DNA of 32,291 nt from a virus. Every line of letters starts with the position of its first letter. Position 1 is the first letter of the stretch. The stretch lies in the IMG/VR virus record IMGVR_UViG_3300045988_153208. One strand, written 5' to 3'. A program made the position numbers and the translations under genes. Positions 16,154 to 32,291 of this stretch are shown here, piece by piece. The notes under the pieces are model-generated. The model was not told where the DNA came from, searched no databases, and was given only the letters and a program-made list of their open reading frames with translations.

Positions 16154-17890
16154 ATGAATCTGTATGACGCCCTGACTACGGAAGATATTGACCTGATTCG
16201 TGCTTACATTGAGGCATATGGCGGCAAGAATGATGAATATGATGCGACTGGTTGTTATGTTCAGTCTATGCCGAACACGATGGCGCCGTGGGCAGAGGCT
16301 AAGGAGCGTCTCTATACGATGTTCGGTGAGCAGCTTATTCTGAGGAAGTCCTTTAACTTCTCTAAGGGCGTCGATGAGTTGGCCGATGAAATCAATGAGG
16401 CTCGTTATCGCAGAGATGGTAATGGTATCTCTGAGATGGACACTTTGATTCGTGAAAATTTCTGGCCTCGGAATATTTATTCCGCTTTGGGTCTGGATGA
16501 TGACCAGGCAGATAATATTTGTCGGCTGATTGATTCCTATATGCTGGCTAATAATTCTTGGAGCCGCACTGAGTTCACTGTGAATGGCGTTCGTGTGAAT
16601 ACTGGTGCTAAGGCTGTGAAGATTCTGGGTAAGATTCTCGCCACTTTTGAGAACCCTGAGTGGAACGAAATCTTTGAGCAGTTCCGCCTGGAACATTCTC
16701 GTATTCTCAATCAAAAGAAGCTGACTGGCGAACTGTGCCTGTCTATTCATCCTCTGGATTATATGACTATGAGTGATAACAACGAGGGCTGGGACAGTTG
16801 TATGAGCTGGCAGGCTTGCGGTGATTATCGTCAGGGCACCGTAGAGATGATGAATTCTCCTTGTGTCGTGGTGGCATATCTGCGGAATCCCGGCTATGAG
16901 ATGGACATTCCCGATGGTCATTGGAACAGCAAGAAGTGGCGTTGCCTGTTTGTTGTCGACCGCGATGTTATTGTTAATATTCGCGAGTATCCCTATTGTA
17001 ATGATGAACTGGTGGGCGAATGCCTGAATTGGTTGAAGAGCCTGGCCGAGAAGAACCTTCATTATCAGTATCGTGATACTACCTGTCGGTATCGCGCAGA
17101 TTGCGAGAATACTGTTCAGGTTGGCGAGAAGAAAATTCCTGTGAATTTTTCTACTGGTCATATGTATAGCGATTTCCGTTTTGAGCATCTGATGTATCTG
17201 AATACCACTCTGCCGGATAATATTAACATTTATTACTCTGGTGTGAGTGAGTGCCTGGGTTGCGGTAAGACTTCCAGCGGCTATGATGAAAGTCTCCTGA
17301 GTTCAAATGATTTGATTTGTCATAGCTGTAATGGCGATGGCGAGTGCGAAGAGTGCGGTCGTTATTGCGATGCTGAGGAATTGTATGAGGTTGAGGGCCG
17401 TTTGATTTGTCAGGATTGCTATGATAACGAGACTGCTGAGTGCCCCGTTTGTCAGCGTGAGGTTGACCTCCACAATGAAAAGTGTGAAGATTGGCGCGAC
17501 CAATTGCCTGACCCTGAGCGCCATTTCATCCGTAGCGATAATACATTTGAAATCGCATTCAATGGCTATATCACTCATCTTCACTTTGATACTCTGTGTG
17601 AGTATTGTGCTAAGAAGATTCGTTCTGGCGAAATCAAGGACTACGGCCCTGTTGAGCAATTTGTTGATAAGTGGAACATTTCCCATACCTATCTGGATTT
17701 GGAGAAGATGACTGAGGACGCTGTTCAGGACGTTATTCCTTGGAATGGTAAGGGCTGGATGGAGCACCGCAGAGACAATCCTAACCGCAGTTGGGTAAGT
17801 CTCAAAACAGGATATTGCGATTTTGATAAGGGTTATTTCATTGATGAAGACGGGAACGAAATCGAAAATCCTCGCAAAATCTTCTTTTAA
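16154..17890 (+). CDS. large hypothetical protein (578 aa), Cys-rich C-terminus; paralog of 21387..22850
   Basis: ORF track. Shares LCLSIHPLDYMTMS, WNSKKWRC, YPY and multiple CxxC blocks with the 487-aa protein. Confidence 0.7.
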   Translation: MNLYDALTTEDIDLIRAYIEAYGGKNDEYDATGCYVQSMPNTMAPWAEAKERLYTMFGEQLILRKSFNFSKGVDELADEINEARYRRDGNGISEMDTLIRENFWPRNIYSALGLDDDQADNICRLIDSYMLANNSWSRTEFTVNGVRVNTGAKAVKILGKILATFENPEWNEIFEQFRLEHSRILNQKKLTGELCLSIHPLDYMTMSDNNEGWDSCMSWQACGDYRQGTVEMMNSPCVVVAYLRNPGYEMDIPDGHWNSKKWRCLFVVDRDVIVNIREYPYCNDELVGECLNWLKSLAEKNLHYQYRDTTCRYRADCENTVQVGEKKIPVNFSTGHMYSDFRFEHLMYLNTTLPDNINIYYSGVSECLGCGKTSSGYDESLLSSNDLICHSCNGDGECEECGRYCDAEELYEVEGRLICQDCYDNETAECPVCQREVDLHNEKCEDWRDQLPDPERHFIRSDNTFEIAFNGYITHLHFDTLCEYCAKKIRSGEIKDYGPVEQFVDKWNISHTYLDLEKMTEDAVQDVIPWNGKGWMEHRRDNPNRSWVSLKTGYCDFDKGYFIDEDGNEIENPRKIFF

Positions 17891-18489: not shown

Positions 18490-19284
18490 ATGATTGGTAT
18501 TTATAAAATTACAAATAAAATTAATGGCAAGAGTTATATTGGATAGAGTATTCGTATTGAACAACGTTGGCGAGACCATCAAATGAGAAGTCAAACTTCT
18601 TTAATTCATCGAGCCTTAGAAAAATATGGTGTCGAAAATTTTACATTCGAAGTATTAGAACAGTGTAATCAAGCAGATTTAGACGAACGAGAAAAATATT
18701 GGATTACCTATTATAATACATTTGAAGATGGCTATAATTTAACTCGCGGTGGAGGAGAAGGGTTTAAATATGACGTTGAAGAAGTTTATCAAACATTTCT
18801 CCAATTGTAGAATTTAGCACAAACCGCTCGTAAAATAGGTTGTCATGAAACTACTGTGAGAAATATTCTTCGAACTTATGATATTAATTTATCTATAAAG
18901 CAAGAAGATAAACCAGTAGAATAGATTGACCCTAAAACATTGTAGGTAATTCGAGAATTTAAAACGGTCCAAGACGCCGCTGATTCAGTTAATTTAAATC
19001 GTGCCTCTATTTCTAAGGTTATTAATGGACATGGAATGACGGCAGGAGGATATATTTGGCGCGCTAAGGGAGATACAGAAAAAATTCTTAAAGATTCAAA
19101 TAAACGTTGGAAATGCCCAGTAGAACAAATGGATTTACAAGGAAATATATTAGCAGAATATGAATCAGCAGCAGAAGCGGCTAGACAAATAGGACATCCT
19201 GGTCGAGGACGCCAAATTATATCTGTTTGTAGAGGGAATAATATGACCTCTTATGGTTATAGATGGCGTTATAAAAAGATTTAA
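18490..19284 (+). CDS. GIY-YIG homing endonuclease with C-terminal NUMOD/IENR-like DNA-binding repeats (264 aa; 4 in-frame TAG read as sense)
   Basis: MIGIYKITNKINGKSYIG-TAG-SIRIEQRWRDH matches GIY..YIGQS..R..H with the TAG at the conserved Gln. NLTRGGGEG. Helix-turn-helix-like repeats downstream. No TAA or TGA for 264 codons. Confidence 0.8.
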
Positions 19285-20346: not shown

Positions 20347-21387
20347 ATGCGAGTGATGAAAGACTCTGAGTATCTAGCATTTAAGCAGTTAGCTAAGCTT
20401 ACTCAAGATCAAATGATTAAGGCTATGCGTGCGGTGTTAGAGGCTCGTTATACCGATATTATCGCAACAAAGGAATATATTGTAGCCAAGGGAGATATTC
20501 CTATCGGATTGGTTGCCCATATGGATACAGTATTCCCGCTTCCTCCTACTGAAATTTATTATGATACTACACAGAATGTTGTGTGGAGTCCGCAGGGTCT
20601 TGGAGCTGATGACCGCGCAGGTGTATTCGCGATTCTTCAGATTTTGAAGACTACAAAATTGCGTCCGCATATTATTTTGACAACTGATGAAGAGAAGGGC
20701 GGATGGGGCGCATACGCCCTTGTTGAACAGCATCCAGATTTTCCGTTTGATGATTTGAAATATCTGATTCAGTTGGACCGCCAGGGCGCGAATGATTGTG
20801 TGTTTTATGATGGTATCAATGAAGATTTTATCCGTTATGTATCTTCTTTTGGTTTCGTAGAGCATATTGGTTCATTCAGCGATATTAGTATTCTGTGTCC
20901 ATTCTGGGATGTGTGCGGTGTCAATCTTTCTGTCGGTTATAAAAATGAGCATAGTCTCATTGAAACATTAAATATTAGCCATTTGTTCGATACCATCCAA
21001 AAGGTGAAGAGAATGTTAATGGTGAAGGAAATTCCTGACTTTGAGTGGAAGGAAAAATACTATCCTTATTTCACTAATGGGTATCCTCTGGATGATGACA
21101 TTGATGAGTATAGCGCGGCTTATGGTTATAATTGGGTAAATGATAAACGCTCTGTTGATGCTTATACAGTAATTTGTCATAATTGTAAGAAGCCATTTTA
21201 TAATTATGAAACATTCCCCACTAAGAAAATTGATGGTGGAACTATGTTCTTGTGCCCCGATTGTGTGGGCGACCATGCTAATTGGTGCGATTGTTGTGGC
21301 GAAGCATTTGAGCGTACACCGGAAAATGCCGGGGCTACTCTTTGCCCTGACTGTGCGAAAATTGAGAAGATTAAGGTTAAAGGTTAA
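20347..21387 (+). CDS. MH-clan (M20/M28/M42-like) metallopeptidase-like domain fused to C-terminal zinc-ribbon (346 aa)
   Basis: VAHMDTV (HxD), GLGADDRAG (GxxDD), TTDEEKGGWGA (EE) in canonical order. The last His motif is not evident. C-terminal CHNC...CPDC...CDCCG...CPDC. Confidence 0.6.
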   Translation: MRVMKDSEYLAFKQLAKLTQDQMIKAMRAVLEARYTDIIATKEYIVAKGDIPIGLVAHMDTVFPLPPTEIYYDTTQNVVWSPQGLGADDRAGVFAILQILKTTKLRPHIILTTDEEKGGWGAYALVEQHPDFPFDDLKYLIQLDRQGANDCVFYDGINEDFIRYVSSFGFVEHIGSFSDISILCPFWDVCGVNLSVGYKNEHSLIETLNISHLFDTIQKVKRMLMVKEIPDFEWKEKYYPYFTNGYPLDDDIDEYSAAYGYNWVNDKRSVDAYTVICHNCKKPFYNYETFPTKKIDGGTMFLCPDCVGDHANWCDCCGEAFERTPENAGATLCPDCAKIEKIKVKG

Positions 21388-22850
21388 TGAAGAGTTATAA
21401 TTTAGATGAACTAAAACAGCAAGTCAAACACGTATTAGAGTATAGTCAGGGTATTTATGATGTGAGTGAGGACGCTCTTGATAATATGATGAGTGAATGG
21501 GAGCGTAATAAAGCACGATTCATTAATGATTTTATGGGCGGCAAACTCATTGTGGAGTTGTCAGGCAAACGCTCCTTTCATTTGGGAGAAAAGGCAAAAC
21601 TCAAGAAATACAATGATTTTTTGGATTATGTTGTTCTGCGAATGAATAATTATGAGTTATGCCGATTTATTGAAGCGCAGGGCGAAGAAGGATTTTATGA
21701 GAACACCGTAAAAACTGGTTGGGACCATACTAAGAGTGATACATTTATTTCGCCGGGATCTAAACTAATACGAGCATTTAAATATTTCATTGAAGATAAG
21801 GATTTGCTGGAAACTGTTCAGAATGAGGCCAGTCGTATTATTCAAGGAGACTGTATCGAAGGCATTCTTTGTATATCAGTCCATCCTCTTGATTACCTCA
21901 GTTTAAGTGAAACTACATATAACTGGCGTTCTTGCCATGCTCTTGATGGCGAATATCGCGCTGGTGATTTGAGTTATTTGATGGATGGTAGCACATTTAT
22001 CTGTTATCTGAGAGGCGATGATAAACAAAACCTCCCTTCATTTCCCGATGATTTGCTCTGGAATAGTAAGAAGTGGCGTTGTTTGGGCTTCTTGGCTGAT
22101 GATGAAAATGGTATCATTATGGGCCGTCCTTATCCCTATGAGGCCGCAGATATTATTAATGAACTTCGTTGGGAAGTGTTTAATAGAGAATGGAATTTGG
22201 GCCTTGGTAGTTGGCGCGCAGACGCCATTCGTTCGGTTCAAGATCGCCTAACTAACTGGGATGAAGATTTGAATCGTACTTATATCCCTTGGAATGGCCG
22301 TCTTGTAGAACTTGATAAAACTGTTCATGATTGTCCAAGTCCTACTCATTATAATGATATTCTTTTATCCAGTTGTTATTTGCCTATTTATGCTCGTGGT
22401 AAAGGATATTTTGGCAAGAATGATTGGAAGAAGGTTCAGTATCATATTGGACACTCAGTAATGTGTATTCATTGTAATTCTGAGTATGTGTCTCCTGGTG
22501 ATGGCACGATGATGTGCCGTTCTTGTGAGATTAGATATGGCAATTCTGACAGTGATGATATTGTTTGTTGTGAGAATTGCGGTTGTCGTTTATGGTATGA
22601 AGACGCAATTGTTGTTGGAGACAATGGAAATTATCTTTGTGATGAATGTGCTAGTAGAATCACTAAAACTTGTAGAGATTGTGGTAATCCATATTACATT
22701 GATGATTTAACATATCATAAAGACGATGAAGATGAAAACGGCGGATATTATCTATGTGGATGGTGCGAGCAAGATAGGCAGGACACGGAAGAAATTGCAG
22801 AAGATGAATCTTCTACTACTACTATCAGTTTTGATGAGTTTGATCTGTAG
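21387..22850 (+). CDS. large hypothetical Cys-rich protein (487 aa; +32 aa if terminal TAG is read through to the TAA at 22949), paralog of 16154..17890
   Basis: TAATG coupling. ILCISVHPLDYLSLS, WNSKKWRC, YPY and CxxC blocks shared with the 578-aa protein. Ends in TAG. Confidence 0.7.
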   Translation: MKSYNLDELKQQVKHVLEYSQGIYDVSEDALDNMMSEWERNKARFINDFMGGKLIVELSGKRSFHLGEKAKLKKYNDFLDYVVLRMNNYELCRFIEAQGEEGFYENTVKTGWDHTKSDTFISPGSKLIRAFKYFIEDKDLLETVQNEASRIIQGDCIEGILCISVHPLDYLSLSETTYNWRSCHALDGEYRAGDLSYLMDGSTFICYLRGDDKQNLPSFPDDLLWNSKKWRCLGFLADDENGIIMGRPYPYEAADIINELRWEVFNREWNLGLGSWRADAIRSVQDRLTNWDEDLNRTYIPWNGRLVELDKTVHDCPSPTHYNDILLSSCYLPIYARGKGYFGKNDWKKVQYHIGHSVMCIHCNSEYVSPGDGTMMCRSCEIRYGNSDSDDIVCCENCGCRLWYEDAIVVGDNGNYLCDECASRITKTCRDCGNPYYIDDLTYHKDDEDENGGYYLCGWCEQDRQDTEEIAEDESSTTTISFDEFDL

Positions 22851-22968
22851 TCATTAAATACAAGACCTATATATTATATACACGATGAAAATGGCGAATG
22901 GATACCTATTACGCGAGTGCGTCAAATACCTCCGCCAGAAAGTGAATAATTATTTAAATATTTAAGGA

Positions 22969-23268: not shown

Positions 23269-23273
23269 TATAA

Positions 23274-23307
23274 TGAGATAAGTCATTTGACTTATCTCAT
23301 TTTTTTT
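23274..23307 (+). terminator. rho-independent terminator at the early/late boundary
   Basis: ATGAGATAAGT / ACTTATCTCAT with a 5-nt loop, then T8. Confidence 0.65.
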
Positions 23308-23315
23308 GTTATAAT
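23307..23315 (+). promoter_or_regulatory. possible extended -10 promoter (TGTTATAAT) for the AT-rich gene block
   Basis: TGnTATAAT immediately after the terminator T-tract. AAGGAG RBS and ATG at 23348. No -35. Confidence 0.3.
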
Positions 23316-23347
23316 TTAAATAGAATTAGATTATAAGGAGATTTAAA

Positions 23348-24049
23348 ATGTATAATCAAATTATTGAAGAATTAGAAGTTCTTAAATAGAATTTTGATAG
23401 TGAAGATATTGTATCATATCAATTACTTTTAATTAAAATTAAGAAAATTATTGATTTGATTAATGATAAACAACTTGAGGAAGCAGATAAAAGCAAATTA
23501 TCTAATTATATTCGAGATTATTTAGCAAGTTTGCATTTAAATAGAATTTTCACAATTTCTGATTTGAATGAATTATTTATTCCAGAAGTGAAAGATTTAG
23601 ATATTGGTAATAAAAATATTTATATTACAATTTTTAATTTATTCGTGGAAGAATTATCTGATGTAGATAATATTTTTTCTCAAAAACTTAAATACTGTAT
23701 TACAAATATGATTTCTAGAATTGCTGCTTCTGTAGATGAAACAATGGTTACAGAAGATAAAACTCAAGAAACTGTAATTAATGAACCTGTTCAAATTATT
23801 CCAACTATAAATACAGTAAATACTAATTCATTCGATTTGGATATTGATATTACTAATAAAAATTATTTGAAAGAATATATTATGCGTAAAAATTTAAAAC
23901 CTTACAGATGTGATATTTGTGGATTAAGTTCCTGGCAAAACAATCCTCTTATGCTATATTTATACAGTAAAAATCATATTTATTCAAATAAAAATTTAGA
24001 AAATTTGATGTTTTTATGCCCTAATTGCTATTCTCAGATTGGAGAGTAA
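23348..24049 (+). CDS. HNH-like endonuclease-domain protein (233 aa; 1 in-frame TAG)
   Basis: AAGGAG RBS. C-terminal CDICG...LYLYSKNHIYSNKNLENLMFLCPNCY resembles HNH (CxxC...H..N...CxxC) with Tyr where the last His normally sits. Confidence 0.55.
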
Positions 24050-24052
24050 TTT

Positions 24053-25240
24053 ATGTATTATAATTCTTATAATTAGAATTATTTTAATGAATTAAATAAA
24101 ATATTCAATAAATTTGATACTAATAATATTAATGATTATTATAATTTATTTAAATTAATATATGATATATATTTTAATGAAAATGTATTTATAATTGTTA
24201 ATGATGATATAAAATATCAATTAGAATCAAATTTAAAATTACTTATTAAAAAAAATAATTGGTTTATAGATTTTGAACAAACTGAAAAAAATATATTAAT
24301 TTCATTATTTATTATAATTACTTAGAAAATTAATTTTGGAAATTATTATCAAATTAATAATACATTAAAACAATAGATTGAATCATTATTATTAGATAAA
24401 AATTTAATTAATGAAAAAATGATTCATGATAGTAAAAATGTTTTTCATTTAGTTGATAGTTTTCCTGAAAATGAAAGTATGATTAAATTTTTTAAGCAAT
24501 ATAATATTGATATTATGAATTAGGAATTTTTAACTATTGGTAATACGAAAATTCCTAATTTTTATTTAAAACAAAAAAATAAAATGATAGATCATTATTA
24601 TGAATTTTGCCATTTATTATTTAAAATTTATAGTCCAATCTTATATTATGGTGTTTCATTTGAAGAAGGATATGAATATAAAATAACTAATAAAGATATT
24701 GTATTTGATTGTGGCGGAAATATGGGACTATTCGCGCTATACTGTGCTTCAAAAGGCGCGCAAGTATATTGTTTTGAGCCTATGTCTTATATTAGAGATT
24801 TTTTATATGAGAGTCAAAAATTATATCCTGATTTAATCCATATTATTCCTTGTGGAGTGTTTAATAGAAATTAGGAACAATATTTTTCTCAAACCTATAA
24901 TCCAGGAGCTGGATCGAATTCAATATTTCATGAATTAGAATATACATCTGATAGATTATATAAAGAAAAATGTAAGTTAATTACATTAGATTCATTTAGT
25001 TAGAATAATCATATTATTCCTACATTTATTAAAGCAGATATTGAAGGGTCTGAAGCACAAATGCTTGAAGGCGCTTCACAAATTTTACAAACATATAAAC
25101 CAACTATGAATATTTGTTTAAATCATCGGACGGAAGACCAATATAATATTCCTACCCTTATTTATAATATCAATTCTAATTATTCATTTTATTATTTTAT
25201 TGAAGGAGAAATACATTCTAAATTTGTATTGTGTAAATAA
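24053..25240 (+). CDS. FkbM-family SAM-dependent methyltransferase (395 aa; 6 in-frame TAG)
   Basis: VFDCGGNMGLFALYCASKGAQVYCFEP (motif I) and IKADIEGSEAQMLEGA (FkbM signature). No TAA or TGA for 396 codons at about 22% GC. Confidence 0.7.
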
Positions 25241-25242
25241 AT

Positions 25243-26196
25243 ATGCCAAATATTATTTTAACAGAATATTGTAATCTTCAATGCCCTTACTGTTTTGCTA
25301 GTAAAATGATTGAAGAAAAAACAGATGATACTAAAAATATTTCTCTTGAATAGTTAGATATGATTTTAAAATGGTTATTACCTTCAGCAACAAATTTAGA
25401 TCGGATTGGATTAATTGGAGGAGAACCTACTTTACATCCTTAGTTTAGAGAGATATTAGGTAGAATAAATTCATTTAATGAATTTACAAATACTTCTTCA
25501 ATAGTATTTACGAATGGAATTAATTTAAGTGAATTTTTATCTGCTATTGGACCAAATATGTCAATTTTAATTAATGTAAATAAATTGACTGGTAAATCAT
25601 TAAATAAACTTAATAGTGTATTAGATGAAATTAATTATTTAAGTTGGTTTAAAATTGATAAAGTTATTTTAGGATGTAATTTATATCAAAATGAAAATGA
25701 TTATTCTTATTTTTGGAATGTAGTTGATAAATATCCAGATATTTTAAGAATAAGAATGTCTATTACTGCACCCAATAGCAAAGAATTAAGAGTAAATAAA
25801 GAATTGTATTATACTATTATGAAACCTATATTATTACAATTTTTAGAAGAAACTAAAAAACGTGATATAAAAATTTCATATGATTGTAATTAGATTCCGT
25901 TATGTTTATTAAACAATGAAGAATAGAATTTAATAAATCAATTAGGGGAATTAAATAGTTTTTGTGAGCCCGTTATAGATATTACTCCAGATTTTAAAGC
26001 TACTTGCTGTTTTGGTGTTTATGATAATCCCATTCAATGTAATGATTTTAATAATATCGAAGAATTAACTAGATATTTTAAAAATCAAATAGTAATAAAA
26101 ACTATAAATAATAACACTTCCATGTGCAAAGATTGTAAAAAATTACAACTTGCTCAATGTCAAGGAGGATGTTTATCATTTTCTAATGTTGGGTAA
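25243..26196 (+). CDS. radical SAM enzyme with SPASM/twitch-like C-terminal Cys cluster (317 aa; 4 in-frame TAG)
   Basis: CNLQCPYC (CxxxCxxC) at residues 10-17. IGLIGGEPTLHP. C-terminal CCFGV...C...CKDCKKLQLAQCQGGC. Translationally coupled to the methyltransferase gene. Confidence 0.8.
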
Positions 26197-26254
26197 GTAT
26201 AAGTAATAAAGTTTTATAATTTTTTAATTCTAAAAAAGAAGGAGGAATTTTTTT

Positions 26255-26692
26255 ATGGCAAATATTACTTATGAATTAATTTTTAAATTTGCTTCTGGTA
26301 AAGAGGTAAATTTTATCGATGAAGAACATACATTTTCTATTGTAGAAGATTATCGTTCTCCAGTTCTTTTAACCCCTCAAATGTTTGGTATTGATGATTT
26401 ACGTGAGTATTATGCATTATTATTAATTGATGGTAAGCCTATGGAGGATTATGCATCAAATTATTGTAATTTTAAAAATTTTGGTAATTCTATTGTTGAT
26501 TTGCTTAATAATAAAGATACTATTTCAGAAATTATTTTAAAAGATATTGATACTAAAGGAGAATATTTTCATATAAATTCTGATCAATTAGTAGGTATTG
26601 AAGCTGGCGGAGGAACTGATAGAGGTTTTGATAATATAATGGTATACCGCATACAAATTTATTATAAAAAAGTTGGAAAAATAGGTGAGTAA
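26255..26692 (+). CDS. hypothetical protein (145 aa), no in-frame TAG
   Basis: Strong AAGGAGG RBS. ORF track. Confidence 0.6.
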   Translation: MANITYELIFKFASGKEVNFIDEEHTFSIVEDYRSPVLLTPQMFGIDDLREYYALLLIDGKPMEDYASNYCNFKNFGNSIVDLLNNKDTISEIILKDIDTKGEYFHINSDQLVGIEAGGGTDRGFDNIMVYRIQIYYKKVGKIGE

Positions 26693-26694
26693 TA

Positions 26695-27315
26695 ATGGGA
26701 GCTAATGCTACATCTGCGGGTAATTTAGTTAAACTATCTGATTTAGATGCGCTATATTTACGTTTATATAATTTAAAAGTAGCTCATATTAATGATGCAG
26801 ATTAGATTAATAAACCTGCTCTAACAGTTCCACCCAAAAGTAGTGGATTAATCCAAGGTAATAAAGTAGAAGTTTCAACCGCTAAAATTGCTACATTAAA
26901 ATCTGAACTAGCAAATTTAGCTCAATCAAAATGGTATTAGTCTAATACGGAGAATACTATAGTAACAATGACAGATTTTAGTACAAATATTAAAGTACCT
27001 AATGTAGGAGATTTATTAAAAAGCGTAGATTTTAATTTAATTGAAACTGCTATTACCTCTGCTGAAACTATTATACCTACTTATTCAAATAAATATAATG
27101 CTCGTTATAGTTTTCGTTATAGTGGTCATTATAGTTCTGATTATGGTACCTGTTATGATAGTCGTTATGGTACTTGTTATAGTAATTGTTATGGAGGCCG
27201 TTATAGTACTCGATATGGTACTTGTTATAGTTGTTATGGTTGTTATGGTTGTTATCGCAGATATAGTTCAAGGTATGGTAGATATGCTGCAAAAAATGTT
27301 CAAATTAGATGTTAA
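26695..27315 (+). CDS. Cys/Tyr/Gly/Ser/Arg-rich tandem-repeat peptide, candidate radical-SAM substrate (206 aa with 2 TAG from the 26695 ATG; 115 aa if it starts at the 26968 ATG)
   Basis: GGTGAG RBS and TAATAATG coupling at 26695. No TAA or TGA for 91 codons upstream of the track ORF 26968..27315. C-terminal 75 residues are [Y-x-x-X] repeats (YSFR, YSGH, YGTC x3, YSNC, YGGR, YSTR, YSC, YGC, YGC ...). Confidence 0.55.
27100..27290 (+). repeat. degenerate 9-12-nt tandem DNA repeats (CGTTATAGT / TGTTATGGT) encoding the YxxX peptide repeats
   Basis: Visible periodicity. All six reading frames are open across it, which gives spurious ORFs at 27041..27340 (+) and 27077..27292 (-). Confidence 0.7.
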
Positions 27316-27326
27316 AGGTGAATTAA

Positions 27327-28763
27327 ATGTTAATAAATAAATTAGATTTAATGGGATCCAGCAGCTGTGATTTAAAATGTTCTTATTGTTATATTACAAA
27401 AAATTGTTCATTTTATAATTATGATTCCGCCGTTCAAGAAGCTTGGGAAACTGGATCTTATTTAACTACTATTAAACAAGTTTTTTCGAAATTGGATGCA
27501 GACCCTACTCAAATAAAAGATTTAGAATTTTGGGGAGGAGAACCTACATTACATATTAAAGAAATGGCTTCTCAAGGAAAAGCATTAGGATAGTTATTTC
27601 CAGAAGTTGATTTTGTATTAATCCCAACTAATTGGTATTAGATTAATATGCAAGCCTTAGTAGATTTTATTTACAATTTTAATGATGGTATCTCTCCTCG
27701 TGGAAGTAAATCAAAAAATGTTAATTTTCATTTACAATTATCCATTGATGGGCCTCCTGGAGATTTTAATACTTATGGTCATAAAGTACCTTGGGATACT
27801 TATAAAAAACAATTTGATGATTTTTGTTTTTATTTAAAAGAAAAAGAAAATTCTGGAAGAGAATTAAAAAATATTAATATTATTTTCGCTATTAGTGGAA
27901 CCTCTTAGCAAAAATATATTTTAAAAAATTTAAATACTTTAGATAAAATAAAAGAATTTCAAGAATATATTAAAAAAGTTTGTAAATATGTAAATGATGA
28001 ACTAAAACAATTTAAAACTATAGATATATTTTTAGGAACTCCAATTTGGACTCCTACGGTAGCTATTCCAGATTCGACAACCACTGAAGAAGCATTAGAA
28101 TTAAATAAAATTGCACTAATGTTAGAATATAGCGATTATGTTAATGGAATAAAACCTTATAGTATTGATGCTAATGAGATTCAAGGGTTTCATGCAACTT
28201 ATGGAGAATTAAATGTATTGGATAGAAATCACGAATGTCCAGAGTCTAATGAACATGCAATTACATTAATGCCTGATGGAACTATTGCTGAATGTCCCTG
28301 TACCTTTTTATAGAATTTAGATTCTTATAAACAAGAATTATTAAATAATAAATAGTATTGGGAATATAAATCTTGTTTAATTAGAGATGGTAGTTTTTAT
28401 AATCCATTATTAGGTGATGAAAAACTTGATAATTACCATAGTTGGTATGTTTATGGTGGTGGATTTATTGGGACTAATTCTACTTATGCTAATTTAAATT
28501 TAAATATGGCTTATGAAATGGCTTTATCAAGATAGATTGATTATAACTATGCATTAAATCCAGAGTTATTAATGAGACATTATATGGCTATTTTTACAAC
28601 TGCTGAATGCTATCGTGAAAATGTTAATGTGACTCATAATCATTTTTTAACAGATCATAACATGTTTAGGCGTTGGTATAATGGTTATGCCGAATTAGGA
28701 TATAAAGATCATCGAGAGAAGATTAAAAAAATTATGGAAAATGTATTAAAAGGAGAAAATTAA
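27327..28763 (+). CDS. radical SAM enzyme with SPASM/twitch-like domain (478 aa; 6 in-frame TAG)
   Basis: AAGGTGA RBS. SSCDLKCSYC (CxxxCxxC). EFWGGEPTLH. C-terminal HECPESNEHAITLMPDGTIAECPC resembles the SPASM pdGdv..C element. Confidence 0.8.
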
Positions 28764-29947
28764 TGTTAGTACAAGAACAAGATAATCTCTTACTGCGAGA
28801 TATAATAGAACGTAATTATTATACATTTTTTCGTAAGGATGAGTATGTAAATAAAAATTTAAATATTTCTTTTTTCTATGATAATGATTATACTGATTAT
28901 AAAATTATTCCTAATTATGAGTCATTAGAAGATAAAAATGCTAACTTTGAATAGATTTATAATAATTTTAAATTATTTTTAAATTATTATAAAAGCCAAG
29001 GGTTTAATGCTAATATTAACATTCATGATGATAAATTTTTTGATAATTTTGAATTAAATTTATCACTATTTAATTTAATTTATGAACAAGAAATTAAATT
29101 TAAATCATTAAATTTTTATATTAGTTTATATAAATTTGAAGATTTAAATTCTCTATTTAATAAAATTAATATATTAAATAATAAATTTCATATAAATTTT
29201 GTTTTTAGCTTATTAATTTCTCAAATTGATTTATTTAAAAATCAAGATATTAATAATTTAAATTATAAATTAAATATTTTAATTCCTCCACAAATGCCGT
29301 CAGAAGAATTAATATTTAATTAGAAAATAATTGATAGTAATAATTTTAATATTGATTAGTATATTGAAGTTGATTCTGATTTATGGACTATCGAAGCGAT
29401 AGAGGATTATTTAAAATATTTAAATTATTTAATGGATAATTTAAATGATTTAAATGAAATTTTCTTTACAAATTTACCTATTGCTTTACAAGATTAGCAT
29501 GTATTAGATAATACAAATTGTAAAAAAAATTGTGATTTCCAAAATTCATTAAATGTTTTGATAGTAGATTTAAGCATTAATTTATGCCACAAATTTCAAT
29601 TTAAAGATTTAATTATTGGTAATTATATATATAATGAAGAAAATAATAAATTAGAAATTGTAAGTAAAAATCTTCCAACGATAATATTAGGGGCGCATTT
29701 AAAACGTTCTAGCACTCCTCATTGTGAAACTTGTTCTTATGTTAATATATGTCAAGGTTTTTGCTTTATGCGCTCTTATTTAAAATGCTATAATCCTATT
29801 ATACCTATTCAGGAAAGTTGTTTATTAAAAAAAATAAAATATAATTTTATTTTTAATAAATTAAAAAATCAAAATTTTAATATTGATAATAATTTAATTA
29901 TTTCAGATTTATATAAGCAATATTTACATCAAATCTTAAAACATTAG
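28763..29947 (+). CDS. SPASM-motif protein lacking the radical-SAM CxxxCxxC core (394 aa; 4 in-frame TAG)
   Basis: TAATG coupling. AAGGAG RBS. C-terminal HCETCSYVNICQGFC is an exact CX2CX5CX3C, with more Cys upstream. No N-terminal CxxxCxxC. Confidence 0.65.
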
Positions 29948-29961
29948 GGAGGGGAAAAATA

Positions 29962-30231
29962 ATGTATTTACCAATACATAATAATTATTATTATTTATTA
30001 ATTAATACTCCTCTTACTTATCCAATTTGTTTAGATGAAGAAGAAGCTCTAGCTTATTTAAAATATATTAATCGAGATGACTATCAATATAATAATATTG
30101 CTAATTATGATGTTCTTGATTATGAGAAAATAATATATATTGAAGTTTCTTTCCCAAATAATGAAGAAATTCAAAAATTACTTACTAAAATTAAAGATAA
30201 TATTGCAACCGGTTATGCATTAAGGAATTAG
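29962..30231 (+). CDS. hypothetical protein (89 aa), ends in TAG
   Basis: AGGGAGGGG RBS. If the TAG is sense the frame runs to a TGA at 30336, overlapping the next gene. Confidence 0.5.
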   Translation: MYLPIHNNYYYLLINTPLTYPICLDEEEALAYLKYINRDDYQYNNIANYDVLDYEKIIYIEVSFPNNEEIQKLLTKIKDNIATGYALRN

Positions 30232-30280
30232 TATAAAAATCGTCTTTTTGATTTTAGCAATTATAAAGAGGAGCGGCTTT

Positions 30281-31684
30281 ATGAACCTTCAAGCGCCAAA
30301 TATTGTGGATTGCCAAGAGATAACTTGTGATATGATAGAAGATTATCTTGCTAAACGATATCAATAGCAAGTATTAAAAACAAAATTTCCTTTTGATGTA
30401 GAAATACAATTAATTTTAGCTAGAAATTGTAATTTAAACTGTACTAATTGTTAGGCTGGTTGTAATATTAATGATAAAAATGAATTAATGACATTAGATG
30501 AAATTAAATACGCTATCCCTAAATTAAAAAAATTTTTTCAAGATAAAATTTTATAGATAGTTTTATTTGGTGGAGAACCATTATTAAATCCAGAGTATGA
30601 AGAAATTTGCTATTATGTACGAAGTGAATTACCAGAAGCCTCAATAGATATTTATACCAATGGTATTCTTAAATAGAATTGGACTGAAAAAGACTATGAA
30701 TTTGCAGTAAAAAATGAAGTACATTTTACACAAAGTTTATATCCATTAGGAGAATCGTATTTTAATAATACTTAGAAACAAGAAGAATTAATGACTAAAT
30801 TAGGCATTAAACATGAAATATGTGGAAATCGTCCTTTTTTTATTAAAGGAGGTTATAATAAAACAGGAAGTTCAAATCCGAATCGTTTTTTTTAGTGTTG
30901 TCATTCAATGTTTCCTCCTCATTTTTATTTATTTAAAAAATAGCTATGGCGATGCGCACCAACATTAAGTTGGGATAAAATTAATATTCCTTGTTTCCCA
31001 GAAGATTATTTAAATATTGATAATTTGACAGAAGAACGTTTTATCGAATATTGTAGCAAACCATTAAAAATATGTAAATATTGTGGAAACTCAGATGAAT
31101 TAGGATTTGGAAGTGATGAAATAATAACTTGGCATCATTAGAAAGATTTGCCCAGTAATTATGATTAGACTTTATATGATTTATATATAAATAATTATAA
31201 ATTATATTATAAGTATGTCCATGATTGCAAAACTATTCTTCCTTGTTTTGATAATTAGTATTTTATAGATAATATTAAAGCAGAGGATTTGCCTTCTCAT
31301 CCAAGTATAATGTTTTTAAAAAAATTTAAAACAGGATTAGGAGATGTATGTATCCCATTTGATAAAGAATCTTGTTAGGATATAAAAAATTTATTAAAAT
31401 TTAAAAAATTAATTTTAAATTAGAATAATTATTTAAATATAAATTTTTATTTTATTTCATTAGATGGAAATAAGCCAGCGAAATCTATTATTTATCGAAT
31501 GTTTCCTCCCGCTTCTTGCGATTTAGAAGGGAATATTTATTTATTAGAATCAGACAATCCCAATAATTTTTATCAAATATTTTTACAAAATAGTTATTTA
31601 AAAAAGAAAATCTGTATTTTAAACTATAAAGATTTATTAGATAAGAATTATTTATCAAATAAATTTAATGAAATGGATGGTTAA
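30281..31684 (+). CDS. radical SAM enzyme (467 aa; 12 in-frame TAG) with Cys-rich C-terminal half
   Basis: AAGAGGAG RBS. NCNLNCTNC (CxxxCxxC). VLFGGEPLLNP. Later CCHSMFPPHFY..., CSKPLKICKYCG, MFPPASCDLEGNIY. No TAA or TGA for 468 codons. Confidence 0.75.
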
Positions 31685-31687
31685 TAA

Positions 31688-32291
31688 ATGAGACAATTTG
31701 AATTTCCTTATAATTTTGATAAAAAATTGTTATATATTTTACAAACATTTACATCTGGTAATGATATTAATTGTATTTATTTACCTCCATATCTTAAAGA
31801 TTATTAGACAATTTTACGAACTGCTGAATAGGCAGAACAATTAGATAAAATGTCTCGACAAGAATACGAAGATCATCTAAATTTTATTAATTCATTATTC
31901 CCAAATAAAATTTAGATTTTATTATAGAAAACTAATATTTTTTTAAACGCTGAACTCGTAAAATATTATATTAATTTAGGTGTTAAAAATTTTTGTGTAG
32001 CATCTATTGAACAAGCTAAAATTATTAAATAGATTGATTCAACAATTAATATTGTTGGATCAATTGCTATGCAAATTACATAGGAAAAAATAATAAATAA
32101 TTTACAAGAATTTTCTCTTTATTTTGATAGTTTTGTTTTACCATTTTCTGCATCTCGTCAATTATCAGAATTAAAAAAATTACCAAAAAATTTTAATTAT
32201 ATTTTATTAATCAATTCTTTGTGTAGTATTAAATGTAATGGAAAAAATCATTGGAATTTTGATTATAAAGAAGATAAAGAGATATTTTGCC
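31688..32291 (+). CDS. hypothetical protein, 5' partial view (201 codons or more, runs off the window; 6 in-frame TAG)
   Basis: ATG 4 nt after the upstream stop. The frame stays open to the window edge apart from TAG. C-terminal-ward Cys pairs. No confident family call. Confidence 0.5.

What the first reader, a model, noticed from the sequence alone, without database searches (positions are those of the whole stretch)
26695..27315. Putative precursor: 75-residue core of [Tyr-x-x-X] tetrapeptide repeats with 9-10 Cys, preceded by a long possible leader
The core reads NKY NARY SFRY SGHY SSDY GTCY DSRY GTCY SNCY GGRY STRY GTCY SCY GCY GCY RRY SSRY GRY ... C. Tyr recurs every 3-4 residues, and YGTC occurs 3 times. 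A regularly spaced aromatic followed two residues later by Cys, Arg, His or Asp is what 3-residue cyclophane-forming or thioether-forming rSAMs act on, although the class here is unknown. The frame is also open without TAA or TGA for 91 codons upstream when TAG is sense, starting at a coupled ATG at 26695 with a GGTGAG RBS. The product may therefore be a 206-aa protein with a large N-terminal leader or domain rather than the 115-aa ORF.
Basis: partly seen in the sequence, partly recalled or inferred. Interest (0 to 1): 0.75.

Follow-up and report, generated by a model that had tools for sequence, protein, structure and literature searches.

The report
Phage aromatic-repeat protein with radical-SAM partners
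A real 206-residue phage protein, readable only if TAG codes for glutamine, has a folded front half and a tail with a tyrosine about every fourth residue; it is always encoded next to the same pair of radical-SAM-type enzymes, which suggests an undescribed phage system for chemically modifying a protein.

Summary
Window 26695-27315 (+) encodes a 206-aa protein with two in-frame TAG (=Gln) codons. It has a conserved ~129-aa N-terminal domain and a 77-aa tail with 19 Tyr (13 at spacing 4), three YGTC, and 8 Cys rather than 9-10. More than 100 divergent relatives exist, all in phage-like metagenomic contigs (up to ~250 kb). Their tails are Tyr-based (period 4 or 3) or Phe-based, and a few end in a Hint/intein domain. 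Cys and charge are not conserved; regularly spaced aromatics in small polar spacers are. In every locus examined the gene is followed by a ~480-aa radical SAM enzyme (F), and by a SPASM-like partner (G) wherever the contig continues. Lineages add further rSAMs, an FkbM methyltransferase, YcaO, and glycogenin-like GT8 or GT2 glycosyltransferases. In this lineage the cassette is a ~12-13 kb AT-rich, TAG-recoded island. No protein reaches any curated family cut-off (triceptide, Hxs, sacti/ranthipeptide maturases). The upstream 145-aa protein models as a tail-tube/Hcp-like fold, not an RRE. Best reading: a late-expressed substrate protein whose aromatic tail F-G modify, closest in logic to triceptides and the HXS effector. 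The chemistry and final role are unproven. The thioether idea is not supported family-wide.

The parts
23272..23315 (+). Left edge of the AT-rich recoded island: terminator-like hairpin (23272-23301, 13-bp stem plus T-run) overlapping the best promoter-like site (TTGACT-17-TATAAT with TG, 23287-23315)
   Evidence: consensus scan only; total promoter count is not above shuffles; GC falls from 0.38 to 0.19-0.27 here
23348..24049 (+). 233-aa protein with a C-terminal HNH-like zinc-ribbon; conserved at the head of the cassette in the TGA-recoded loci too
   Evidence: PHROG HNH endonuclease E 5e-15 on residues 168-231; no Pfam hit; orthologs in L004 and L010
24053..25240 (+). FkbM-family SAM-dependent methyltransferase (395 aa, 6 in-frame TAG)
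   Evidence: PF05050 33.8 bits (cut-off 22.7), TIGR01444 67.6 bits (cut-off 37.7)
25243..26196 (+). Radical SAM enzyme 'rSAM1' (317 aa; CNLQCPYC; Cys-rich C-terminus), an accessory member of the cassette
   Evidence: PF04055 43 bits (cut-off 29.5); only N-terminal ~100 aa match curated families, far below cut-offs; best PDB hit SkfB, E 2.7e-4; orthologs 43-44% in L004/L010
26255..26692 (+). Protein D (145 aa, no TAG), translationally coupled to the candidate; predicted tail-tube/Hcp-like fold
26695..27081 (+). Candidate protein E, N-terminal conserved domain (aa 1-129), with sense TAG codons at 26803-26805 and 26938-26940
   Evidence: no Pfam/NCBIfam/PHROG/PADLOC family; no fold match
27082..27315 (+). 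Candidate protein E, aromatic-repeat tail (aa 130-206; unit Y-[S/G]-[S/T/G/A/N]-[R/C/Q/K/D/H]; 19 Tyr, 8 Cys; ends ...VQIRC) plus TAA stop
   Evidence: AF2 pLDDT below 40
27327..28763 (+). Protein F (478 aa, 6 TAG): radical SAM enzyme, the universally conserved downstream partner
   Evidence: CDLKCSYC; invariant C14/C18/C21, GGE 70-72, C304, C323, C428 across six orthologs; PF04055 17.5 bits here, but the L011 ortholog scores 30.1 (cut-off 29.5); PHROG 1802 E 7e-9; 65 homolog clusters, all unnamed; immediately follows E in every locus
28763..29962 (+). Protein G (399 aa, 5 TAG): SPASM-like partner. It lacks CxxxCxxC in this lineage but has a conserved C-terminal Cys array
   Evidence: TIGR04085 SPASM 23.4 bits (cut-off 27); invariant C257, C275, C321, C324, C330, C334, C353, and the L011 ortholog still has CPSKCSYC; orthologs in L004, L010, L011
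29962..30330 (+). Protein H (122 aa), a conserved small protein of unknown function
   Evidence: orthologs in L004 and L010; no family
30281..31684 (+). Radical SAM enzyme I (467 aa, 12 TAG; CNLNCTNC), a lineage-specific accessory
   Evidence: PF04055 45.8 bits; below all curated cut-offs; absent from L004
31688..32291 (+). N-terminal part of protein J (runs off the window). In L001 it is a 471-aa fusion of the conserved J domain with a GT8-like glycosyltransferase
   Evidence: J orthologs in L003, L004, L010; no family for the J domain

Best explanation
Gene E (26695-27315) encodes a 206-aa substrate protein belonging to a phage post-translational-modification cassette. SHOWN: the gene, its frame and TAG=Gln; a conserved, foldable N-terminal domain followed by a disordered tail of regularly spaced aromatic residues in small polar spacers; strict gene-order linkage E-F, followed by G wherever the contig continues, in every lineage examined and in three genetic-code backgrounds; F is a radical SAM enzyme, and G is a paralog-like partner with a SPASM-type cysteine array. 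INFERRED: F and G act together on the tail of E, using the N-terminal domain as the docking or recognition element. Because Tyr-type and Phe-type tails are interchangeable across the family, while Cys, charge and the residue before the aromatic are not conserved, the core chemistry most likely targets the aromatic ring or adjacent C-H bonds. The most likely form is cyclophane-type C-C (or C-O) cross-links on aromatic-X-X units, as in triceptides. Lineage-specific enzymes then decorate the product: two more rSAMs, an FkbM methyltransferase, YcaO, and glycogenin-like GT8 or GT2 glycosyltransferases, possibly giving Tyr/Ser/Thr glycosylation and azoline formation. INFERRED: the product stays a protein (N-domain plus modified tail) rather than a small released peptide. 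It is made late in infection, because the cassette can only be translated once TAG is read as Gln. Its role (virion- or tail-associated, adhesive, or a conflict effector like HxsA) remains open. Confidence by layer: about 0.8 that E is the substrate of F-G; about 0.25 that the reaction is specifically a cyclophane-type cross-link.
For: - Gene and frame.
- Family breadth and tail variants: exhaustive profile search found 148 hits, of which 118 fetched proteins carry the N-domain to its end. Among 66 divergent tails the aromatic fraction has median 0.24, small polar residues 0.54, 41 are Tyr-dominant and 23 Phe-dominant, Cys count is 0-11 (median 2), and net charge is -7 to +17.
- Linkage: E is followed immediately by F in the window, L001-L006, L009-L012. 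In an independent test starting from F members only 23-34% identical, an E-family gene lay directly upstream and a gene of G-like size (419-456 aa) directly downstream in 3 of 3 cases.
- Coupling: 2-nt and 11-nt intergenic gaps D-E-F; F/G and G/H overlap by 1 nt.
- F is a radical SAM enzyme: invariant CxxxCxxC and GGE; the L011 ortholog passes the Pfam cut-off.
- G: conserved 7-8 Cys array, weak SPASM/QhpD-like hits.
- SPASM-type rSAMs are peptide/protein maturases by established family knowledge (subtilosin, PQQ, anaerobic sulfatase, mycofactocin).
- Accessory PTM enzymes.
- Late or recoded expression: in-frame TAG is concentrated in the island; recoding is proposed to regulate late and lytic genes (bioRxiv 10.1101/2021.08.26.457843, listed); in L011 the module follows amidase/holin-like genes.
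- Precedent for an rSAM-matured repeat protein (not a peptide) in phage-host conflict: HXS (PMC13128918).
- Protein rather than peptide: the N-domain is the most conserved part; no conserved protease or exporter; D is not an RRE fold; Hint-fused relatives process the C-terminus instead.
Against: - There is no direct evidence of any modification; everything about the chemistry is inference from gene neighbourhood.
- None of the rSAMs reaches a curated family cut-off; matches cover only the generic N-terminal ~100 residues, so the reaction type cannot be assigned by homology.
- The aromatic-X-S/T enrichment is moderate (S/T at +2 in 47-51% against a 27% background; only 7 of 19 Tyr in the window tail; Gly at +2 in ~15%), so a 3-residue cyclophane cannot form at every repeat.
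- No recognisable RRE or leader family, so how the substrate is recognised is unknown.
- D's tail-tube-like fold rests on a moderate-confidence model with a shallow alignment and is not traceable in remote loci.
- An M28/M20-like peptidase lies 2 kb upstream in this lineage and could be a leader protease.
- The rSAMs could in principle act on a non-protein substrate.
Confidence: 0.55

Rival explanations
1. Classical RiPP precursor. The ~129-aa N-terminal region is a large protein-like leader that is cleaved off, and the Tyr-repeat core is released at lysis as one or several small cross-linked peptides with antimicrobial or signalling activity.
For: The enzyme set is typical of RiPP clusters: rSAM/SPASM, YcaO, methyltransferase, glycosyltransferase. 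Large structured leaders are known (NHLP/proteusins: PMC10858898, PMC12537861, listed). Triceptide precursors carry multiple aromatic-X-X motifs (PMC11499958). An M28/M20-like peptidase lies just upstream in this lineage.
Against: No leader family match. No conserved protease, exporter or RRE in the cassette; the peptidase lies outside the island and is absent near the cassette in L004, L010, L011 and L013-L015. There is no conserved cleavage motif at the domain/tail junction. Hint-fused members imply C-terminal rather than N-terminal processing. The neighbouring protein D has a tube/Hcp-like fold.
Confidence: 0.2
2. Unmodified low-complexity protein. The tail works as such: evenly spaced aromatic 'stickers' in Ser/Gly spacers, like prion-like or FUS-type domains or Tyr/Cys-rich structural proteins. 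It would serve adhesion, condensate formation or nucleic-acid binding, while the neighbouring rSAM, GT and MT enzymes act on another substrate such as a glycan, nucleotide or cofactor.
For: Tail composition and patterning. The tail is predicted disordered. The window-lineage tail is strongly basic, about +10 by residue count. Tail-fibre-like and lysis genes lie nearby in other lineages. Glycosyltransferases plus an FkbM methyltransferase could form a glycan pathway on their own. The resemblance to sticker-spacer domains is from my general knowledge and was not tested.
Against: The strict E-F(-G) adjacency and translational coupling, held across ~22-30% identity and three genetic codes, is hard to explain without a direct functional link. 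SPASM-type enzymes are peptide/protein maturases by family knowledge. Charge is not conserved.
Confidence: 0.12
3. Thioether (sactipeptide/ranthipeptide-like) or other Cys-centred cross-linking is the main chemistry, with the YGTC/CYGCYGCY cysteines as donors.
For: 8 Cys in the window tail, 7 of them directly before a Tyr. Weak N-terminal matches of the rSAMs to PapB, SkfB, CefB and QhpD-type models.
Against: Cys is absent or rare in many family tails that keep F and G: 0 in P0063, 0-1 (depending on where the tail is taken to start) in P0064, 2 in P0056, 3 in P0062, and 7 of 66 divergent tails have none. All matches are far below family cut-offs (36 bits against 340 for PapB). At most this is a lineage-specific extra, for example for rSAM1 or I.
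Confidence: 0.06
4. Not a real gene. The open frame would be a by-product of a DNA tandem repeat, or another frame is the one translated.
For: The tail is a degenerate 12-nt/9-nt tandem array, and two other frames are open across it.
Against: More than 100 homologs keep this frame joined to the conserved N-domain. Tail length differences are in-frame, in blocks of 4 aa (or 3 aa in the short CYG-type region) in the alignment. The alternative frames are explained by NNT codon bias. RBS and coupled start are present.
Confidence: 0.01

Closest known systems
HXS anti-phage system (HxsA/B/C/D; Li et al., Nat Commun 2026, PMC13128918)
   Same: A protein of ~200 aa (HxsA, 214 aa) with a functional domain plus tandem aromatic/heteroaromatic-X-Ser repeats is matured by two radical SAM proteins and a small partner protein. 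The product stays a protein effector and acts in phage-bacterium conflict. Its repeats are basic, like the window-lineage tail.
   Different: HXS is bacterial (99.7% Pseudomonadota), has 5 HxS repeats, a peptidoglycan-binding domain and export to the periplasm, and its gene order is D-B-C-A. Here the system is phage-encoded. It has 17-31 Tyr or Phe repeats, no signal peptide or PG-binding domain detected, and a different gene order. There is no homology above cut-off to HxsA/B/C and no copy in 185,579 representative prokaryotic genomes.
Triceptides / 3-residue cyclophane-forming rSAM enzymes (3-CyFEs; e.g. YhhB, HaaB, HtkB; PMC11499958)
   Same: rSAM/SPASM enzymes cross-link an aromatic ring to C-beta of the third residue of aromatic-X-X motifs. 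Precursors often carry several such motifs, and all aromatic residues can be used, which fits Tyr/Phe interchange in this family.
   Different: Triceptide maturases are single rSAM-SPASM proteins acting on short precursors. Here there is an rSAM plus a SAM-cluster-less SPASM-like partner, a ~125-aa folded N-domain, and up to 31 repeats. YhhB-model scores are 20-31.5 bits against a cut-off of 445. Ser/Thr at position 3 is only enriched, not fixed, and Gly occurs there.
Proteusins / NHLP-type RiPPs with large protein-like leaders
   Same: A long structured N-terminal region precedes a repetitive, heavily modified C-terminal region, with several rSAMs and a methyltransferase in the cluster (PMC10858898, PMC12537861, from abstracts listed).
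   Different: No NHLP/Nif11 similarity. No evidence for leader removal. Phage origin.
Glycogenin (GT8), which self-glucosylates a tyrosine
   Same: The cassette's 379-aa and 244-aa proteins and the C-terminal half of the 471-aa protein are GT8-like. The best solved-structure matches are glycogenin-1 (E 1.2e-5 over the catalytic 180 residues, DxD aligned), and they lie next to a protein with 19 Tyr. Tyr as glycogenin's acceptor is from my own knowledge.
   Different: Similarity is at the GT8-fold level only. The acceptor is unknown. Other lineages use GT2 instead, and 23 of 66 tails are Phe-based, so Tyr-O-glycosylation cannot be the family-wide core reaction.
Stop-codon-recoded gut phages (TAG to Gln, TGA to Trp; bioRxiv 10.1101/2021.08.26.457843; PMC10607447; PMC10879173)
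   Same: In-frame TAG is read as Gln in a subset of genes on large phage contigs, which has been proposed to restrict those genes to late infection (listing).
   Different: Here the recoded codons are concentrated in a sharply bounded AT-rich PTM island rather than in recognisable structural or lysis genes. The same cassette occurs in TAG-recoded, TGA-recoded and standard-code backgrounds.

Membership tests
Radical SAM superfamily (protein F) | CxxxCxxC cluster motif, GGE SAM-binding motif, Pfam PF04055 at gathering score | tested here: met
   C14/C18/C21 and G70-G71-E72 are invariant in 6 orthologs. The window F scores 17.5 bits (below 29.5), but the L011 ortholog scores 30.1 over residues 9-182. 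Many homologs carry precomputed PF04055.
SPASM-domain proteins (protein G) | C-terminal 7-8 Cys auxiliary-cluster motif matching TIGR04085 | tested here: inconclusive
   TIGR04085 scores 23.4 bits against a cut-off of 27. Conserved Cys at 257, 275, 321, 324, 330, 334, (342), 353. No structure model was made.
Triceptides (3-CyFE RiPPs) | Maturase belongs to a characterised cyclophane-synthase family (e.g. YhhB NF041707) | tested here: not met
   Best YhhB-model scores are 31.5 bits (rSAM I) and 20 bits (rSAM1) against a cut-off of 445, covering the N-terminal ~100 aa only.
Triceptides (3-CyFE RiPPs) | Aromatic-X-X motifs in the core with a C-beta-bearing third residue | tested here: inconclusive
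   An aromatic residue about every 4th position. Position +2 is S/T in 47-51% of cases (background 27%) but Gly in 9-15%; 7 of 19 in the window tail.
Triceptides (3-CyFE RiPPs) | Aromatic-to-C-beta cross-link (-2 Da per motif) | not testable with these tools
   Needs MS/NMR of the co-expressed product.
HXS defence system | HxsA: His-Xaa-Ser repeats plus a peptidoglycan-binding domain | tested here: not met
   The repeats are Tyr/Phe-based. E has no NCBIfam, Pfam or PADLOC hit.
HXS defence system | HxsB (TIGR03978) and HxsC (TIGR03977) equivalogs | tested here: not met
   Best scores are 26.9 against 370 (HxsB) and 28.6 against 267.9 (HxsC), N-terminal stretch only.
HXS defence system | Encoded in bacterial chromosomes as a defence locus | tested here: not met
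   No relative of E in 185,579 representative genomes. All loci are phage-like metagenomic contigs of up to ~250 kb.
Sactipeptides / ranthipeptides | Conserved Cys donors in the core and a maturase of the PapB/CteB/SkfB type | tested here: not met
   Cys is absent from 7 of 66 divergent tails, median 2. PapB model scores at most 36 bits against 340. SkfB PDB hit E 2.7e-4, N-terminal only.
Proteusin / NHLP or Nif11 leader RiPPs | Leader homologous to nitrile-hydratase alpha or Nif11 | tested here: not met
   No Pfam/NCBIfam hit for E. No fold match.
RRE-dependent RiPP pathways | A PqqD-like winged-helix recognition element, as a stand-alone protein or fused to an enzyme | tested here: not met
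   D models as a beta-rich tube/Hcp-like fold. No PqqD/RRE Pfam hit in D, H, F or G. Fused RREs in F/G were not examined structurally.
GT8 glycosyltransferases (glycogenin-like) | GT-A fold with a DxD motif; PF01501 | tested here: inconclusive
   PF01501 scores 23.3 bits against a cut-off of 24.3 on the 471-aa protein. Glycogenin-1 E 1.2e-5 with an aligned DAD motif for the 379-aa protein. Acceptor specificity is not testable.
TAG-to-Gln recoded phage | In-frame TAG in conserved genes aligning with Gln; a suppressor tRNA(CUA) | tested here: inconclusive
   The first feature is met. No tRNA lies in the 32-kb window, and the rest of the ~196-200 kb genome was not available to scan.
Phage tail-tube / Hcp fold (protein D) | Beta-sandwich plus helix fold shared by tail tube, Hcp and tube initiators | tested here: inconclusive

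The most novel reading that the evidence does not exclude
Large recoded phages carry a dedicated late-expressed 'protein armouring' island. A new rSAM + SPASM-like pair performs an undescribed cross-linking reaction on a regularly spaced aromatic array. Glycosylation, methylation, azoline formation or Hint-mediated C-terminal ligation are added according to lineage. The result is a hyper-modified protein that the phage deploys itself: for example on or in the tail (the neighbouring protein has a tube/Hcp-like fold), as an adhesive or protective fibre, or as a phage-side counterpart of the HXS DNA-entry blocker used for superinfection exclusion. This would be the first rSAM-matured repeat-protein effector encoded by a virus, and a new rSAM reaction class.
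Probability: 0.25. Interest if true: 0.85.

Novelty: new variant of a known kind. Interest (0 to 1): 0.7.

Why it matters
Radical-SAM maturation of repeat-containing peptides (triceptides) and, very recently, of a repeat-containing protein effector (HXS) is known only from bacteria. Here the same logic appears in uncultivated phages of about 130-250 kb. The substrate family (more than 100 divergent representatives) and the enzyme families have no curated annotation. The cassette includes up to four rSAM-type proteins, YcaO, a methyltransferase and glycogenin-like glycosyltransferases. If the modification is confirmed, three things follow:
- a new rSAM substrate class and probably new chemistry on Tyr/Phe arrays;
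- a concrete, testable example of what stop-codon-recoded 'late' phage genes outside the structural and lysis modules do;
- a possible phage-side counterpart to a bacterial defence mechanism.

The sharply bounded AT-rich, CAG-depleted, TAG-rich island is also a clean case for studying how recoding and composition partition a phage genome.

Tried and rejected
- **DNA and protein searches of deposited phages.** Megablast of both window halves and tblastn of E and F against 50,697 phage records found nothing.
- **Genome and IMG/VR scans.** No E relative in the representative genomes; one near-identical IMG/VR contig.
- **Fold search of E.** Nothing meaningful in the PDB (best E 4) or BFVD (best E 0.27, TM at most 0.36). 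The tail is modelled at pLDDT below 40, so no structural inference was drawn from it.
- **J as a U32-type anaerobic hydroxylase (Tyr to DOPA).** My own guess from a C-x3-C-x-G pattern. No Pfam or PDB support even at lenient thresholds, so dropped.
- **D as an RRE.** The fold does not fit.
- **D conserved in remote loci.** Not detectable by BLAST or hhalign.
- **Viperin-like or defence assignment.** PADLOC pVip hits cover only the first ~60-100 residues of the rSAM core, so rejected.
- **Tail-only profile hits in long proteins.** P0084, P0094, P0096, P0115 and others are unrelated proteins with period-4 aromatic repeats, not homologs.
- **Precursor-type attenuator after E.** None found; only the island-edge hairpin.
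- **DNA-binding or protamine-like role as a family-wide function.** Net charge ranges from -7 to +17, so not conserved.
- **Literature.** No paper links recoded phages with rSAM/SPASM cassettes or describes this repeat family.
Full report
**1. What is in the sequence**

An ATG at 26695 follows the TAA stop of the upstream gene by 2 nt and has AGGTGAG 8-14 nt upstream. The frame runs to TAA at 27313-27315 and is interrupted only by TAG at codons 37 and 82. Under the standard code only the 115-aa ORF from 26968 is listed.

Thirteen Tyr-Tyr spacings are exactly 4, and 100,000 shuffles of the tail never exceed 10. At the DNA level the tail is a degenerate 12-nt tandem array plus a nearly perfect 9-nt array.

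**2. TAG is sense and the protein is 206 aa**

- The window splits at ~23.3 kb. Upstream, GC is ~0.40 and in-frame TAG is almost absent. Downstream, GC is 0.18-0.27 and every long ORF is peppered with TAG.
- A search of 5.8 billion proteins returned 64 homologs of the 206-aa translation. Of these, 62 are full length (165-255 aa). The only 115-aa entry is a standard-code truncation.
- The alignment shows a conserved N-terminal ~129 aa followed by a variable number of x-x-x-Y units, with length differences in blocks of 4 residues.
- In the DNA of related loci, window TAG codons align with CAA/CAG Gln codons and vice versa.
- The two other open frames across the tail are explained by codon bias, since 62 of 77 tail codons end in T.

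The gene, its frame and its length are settled.

**3. Genomic setting**

The window is phage-like: HNH and GIY-YIG endonucleases, a phosphoesterase and several PHROG-only families. Close relatives sit on contigs of 128-200 kb, including one NCBI assembly contig of 195.7 kb.

The candidate lies in an AT-rich island of about 12-13 kb. In L001 and L003 the island is flanked on both sides by GC ~0.40 DNA. Inside it CAG is almost eliminated, and TAG supplies roughly a third to a half of Gln codons. Its left edge in the window carries a strong terminator-like hairpin overlapping the best promoter-like site. This is a consensus match only.

Island genes, all on the + strand and tightly packed:

| Gene | Size | Assignment |
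|---|---|---|
| HNH-like | 233 aa | C-terminal zinc-ribbon |
| MT | 395 aa | FkbM methyltransferase |
| rSAM1 | 317 aa | radical SAM |
| D | 145 aa | unassigned by sequence |
| E | 206 aa | the candidate |
| F | 478 aa | radical SAM, CDLKCSYC |
| G | 399 aa | SPASM-like |
| H | 122 aa | unassigned |
| I | 467 aa | radical SAM |
| J | runs off the window | unassigned conserved domain |

Beyond the window end, two to three GT8-like glycosyltransferases follow. Their best solved-structure match is glycogenin-1 (E 1.2e-5).

**4. The family is much larger than the first search showed**

An exhaustive profile search of 1.84 billion representatives gave 148 hits. After separating tail-only low-complexity matches in unrelated long proteins, 118 fetched proteins carry the N-terminal domain through to its end.

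Their tails come in several flavours: Tyr with period 4, Tyr with period 3, mixed Y/F, and Phe-based NF[ST]S repeats.

Across 66 divergent representatives:
- aromatic fraction: median 0.24
- small polar residues: median 0.54
- 41 Tyr-dominant and 23 Phe-dominant tails
- Cys count 0-11, median 2, and seven tails have none
- net charge -7 to +17

The residue after the aromatic is S/G/T in 53-75% of cases. The next one is S/T in 47-51%, against a 27% background.

At least five members end in a Hint/intein domain that begins with a Cys directly after the tail. Pfam PT-HINT, Hint or Intein_splicing score above cut-off. The window protein ends in ...VQIRC, and the idea that this Cys is a relic of Hint Cys1 is speculation.

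**5. Linkage to enzymes**

In every locus examined, E is followed immediately by an F ortholog, and by G wherever the contig continues: window, L001-L006, L009-L012.

As an independent test I started from F-family members only 23-34% identical to the window's F. In 3 of 3 cases the gene directly upstream is an E-family protein with an aromatic-repeat tail, and the gene directly downstream has G-like size, 419-456 aa.

The cassette occurs in TAG-to-Gln, TGA-to-Trp (L004, L010) and standard-code (L011) backgrounds.

F has invariant CxxxCxxC and GGE motifs, and its L011 ortholog passes Pfam's Radical_SAM threshold. G lacks the SAM-cluster motif in most lineages, though L011 retains it, and keeps a 7-8 Cys SPASM-like array.

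Accessory genes vary by lineage: rSAM1, FkbM MT, H and J in the recoded lineages; YcaO in L003, L010, L013 and L015; GT8 or GT2 glycosyltransferases in all the longer loci where the flanking genes could be annotated.

**6. What the neighbours say about protein versus peptide**

- E's N-domain is predicted to fold (three helices plus a hairpin, pLDDT 65-84) and its tail to be disordered. No fold match was found.
- No protease or exporter is conserved in the cassette. An M28/M20-like peptidase lies upstream in this lineage only.
- In L004 and L010 tail-fibre-like Laminin_G_3 proteins lie upstream. In L011 the module follows amidase/holin-like genes.

**7. Mechanism**

*Shown:* a conserved substrate-like protein, strictly co-located and translationally coupled with an rSAM enzyme and a SPASM-like partner.

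*From established knowledge:* SPASM-type rSAMs mature peptides or proteins.

*Inferred:* F-G modify the tail of E and use the N-domain for recognition. Tyr and Phe tails are interchangeable, while Cys, charge and the preceding residue are not conserved. The core chemistry should therefore address the aromatic ring or neighbouring C-H bonds. Cyclophane-type cross-linking on aromatic-X-X units, as defined for triceptides (PMC11499958), is the best-fitting known reaction. Gly at the third position in ~9-15% of units means it cannot occur at every repeat.

Glycogenin-like GT8s next to a 19-Tyr tail suggest Tyr-O-glycosylation as a lineage-specific decoration. YcaO suggests azoline or backbone chemistry on the abundant Ser/Thr/Cys. 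FkbM suggests O-methylation. None of this is demonstrated.

The recoding implies that translation happens only after TAG suppression is established. This has been proposed to mark late and lytic genes (bioRxiv 10.1101/2021.08.26.457843).

**8. Comparison with known systems**

The closest in logic is the HXS defence system: a 214-aa HxsA effector with five His-X-Ser repeats, matured by rSAMs HxsB/HxsC and the small protein HxsD, which then blocks phage DNA entry (PMC13128918). Triceptides are the closest in plausible chemistry.

Membership fails for both. E matches no HxsA or precursor model. The rSAMs score 15-36 bits against cut-offs of 268-650 for HxsB, HxsC, YhhB, PapB, the ryptide maturase and others, and only over the generic N-terminal ~100 residues. 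PADLOC shows only the same generic matches, to viperin models. No relative of E exists in 185,579 representative prokaryotic genomes or in 50,697 deposited phage records. The Cys-centred (thioether) reading is not supported at family level.

**9. Verdict**

- **Observation:** confirmed.
- **Interpretation:** partly supported. It is an rSAM-linked, post-translationally modified product, but more likely a modified protein than a cleaved peptide. Thioether formation is unlikely to be the conserved chemistry, although Cys may be a lineage-specific target.
- **Novelty:** a new variant of a known kind (rSAM-matured repeat substrates), with new substrate and enzyme families and a viral, recoded context. 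The chemistry and the biological role remain to be determined experimentally.

Noticed in passing
window 23272-32291 (and L001 6.6-19.3 kb, L003 4.7-18.2 kb): The whole cassette is a sharply bounded AT-rich island (GC 0.16-0.30 against ~0.40 on the flanks). Inside it CAG is almost eliminated and TAG supplies about 30-50% of Gln codons, while flanking genes have 0-2 TAG each. The contrast is maintained between lineages only ~55% identical, and the reason is unexplained.
   Followed up: partly
window 23272-23315: A 13-bp-stem terminator-like hairpin with a T-run overlaps a near-consensus promoter-like site (TTGACT-17-TATAAT with TG), exactly at the composition break.
   Followed up: no
P0072, P0076, P0082, P0086; L015 5108-5989; L010 8001-9002: Some family members carry a C-terminal Hint/intein-like domain that starts with Cys immediately after the aromatic-repeat tail. 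This implies autoprocessing or thioester formation at the tail's C-terminus. The window protein ends in a lone Cys (...VQIRC).
   Followed up: partly
L004 and L010 (TGA in frame), L011 (no in-frame stops), L009/L013/L015 (TAG in frame): The same E-F-G module occurs in phage contigs using three different codes (TGA to Trp, standard, TAG to Gln), and the cassette genes are adapted to each code.
   Followed up: partly
window 18490-19284: A GIY-YIG/NUMOD homing-endonuclease-like gene with 4 in-frame TAG sits in the otherwise almost TAG-free GC ~0.39 region (Pfam GIY-YIG 42.4 bits). Another GIY-YIG gene lies at the right end of the island in L001 (18653-19297).
   Followed up: partly
window 20356-21384 and 21387-22949: An M28/M20-like peptidase with C-terminal CxxC zinc-ribbons is followed by a 520-aa Cys-rich protein with many CxxC pairs and one TAG. 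The pair is conserved directly upstream of the island in L001, L003 and L012. It could be a processing protease, but this was not tested.
   Followed up: no
L004 14696-20585: Just downstream of the cassette in the TGA-recoded lineage lie an SDF-family transporter, a sigma-70 factor, an RNase T-like exonuclease and an 81-aa chorismate mutase (PF01817). The last is suggestive for a phage that makes a protein with an aromatic residue at every fourth tail position.
   Followed up: no
L003 4772-6571; L010 14392-16158; L013 945-2741; L015 1588-3360: A stand-alone YcaO (~590-600 aa) is part of the cassette in four lineages but is absent from the window's lineage.
   Followed up: no
window 27041-27340 (+) and 27077-27292 (-): Two overlapping ORFs in other frames (Val/Ile/Met-rich; Asn/His/Tyr-rich) are artefacts of the NNT-rich repeat codons of the tail.
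   Followed up: yes
P0096, P0084 (profile-search hits): Unrelated long proteins carry period-4 aromatic repeats resembling the tail (CYDSCYDICYDS...; QYTGQYTKQYTG...). This hints that such arrays recur in other contexts.
   Followed up: no
window 16154-17887: A 578-aa protein with a weak prokaryotic RING-finger match (PF14447, 23.7 bits, below cut-off) and a PHROG family of unknown function.
   Followed up: no
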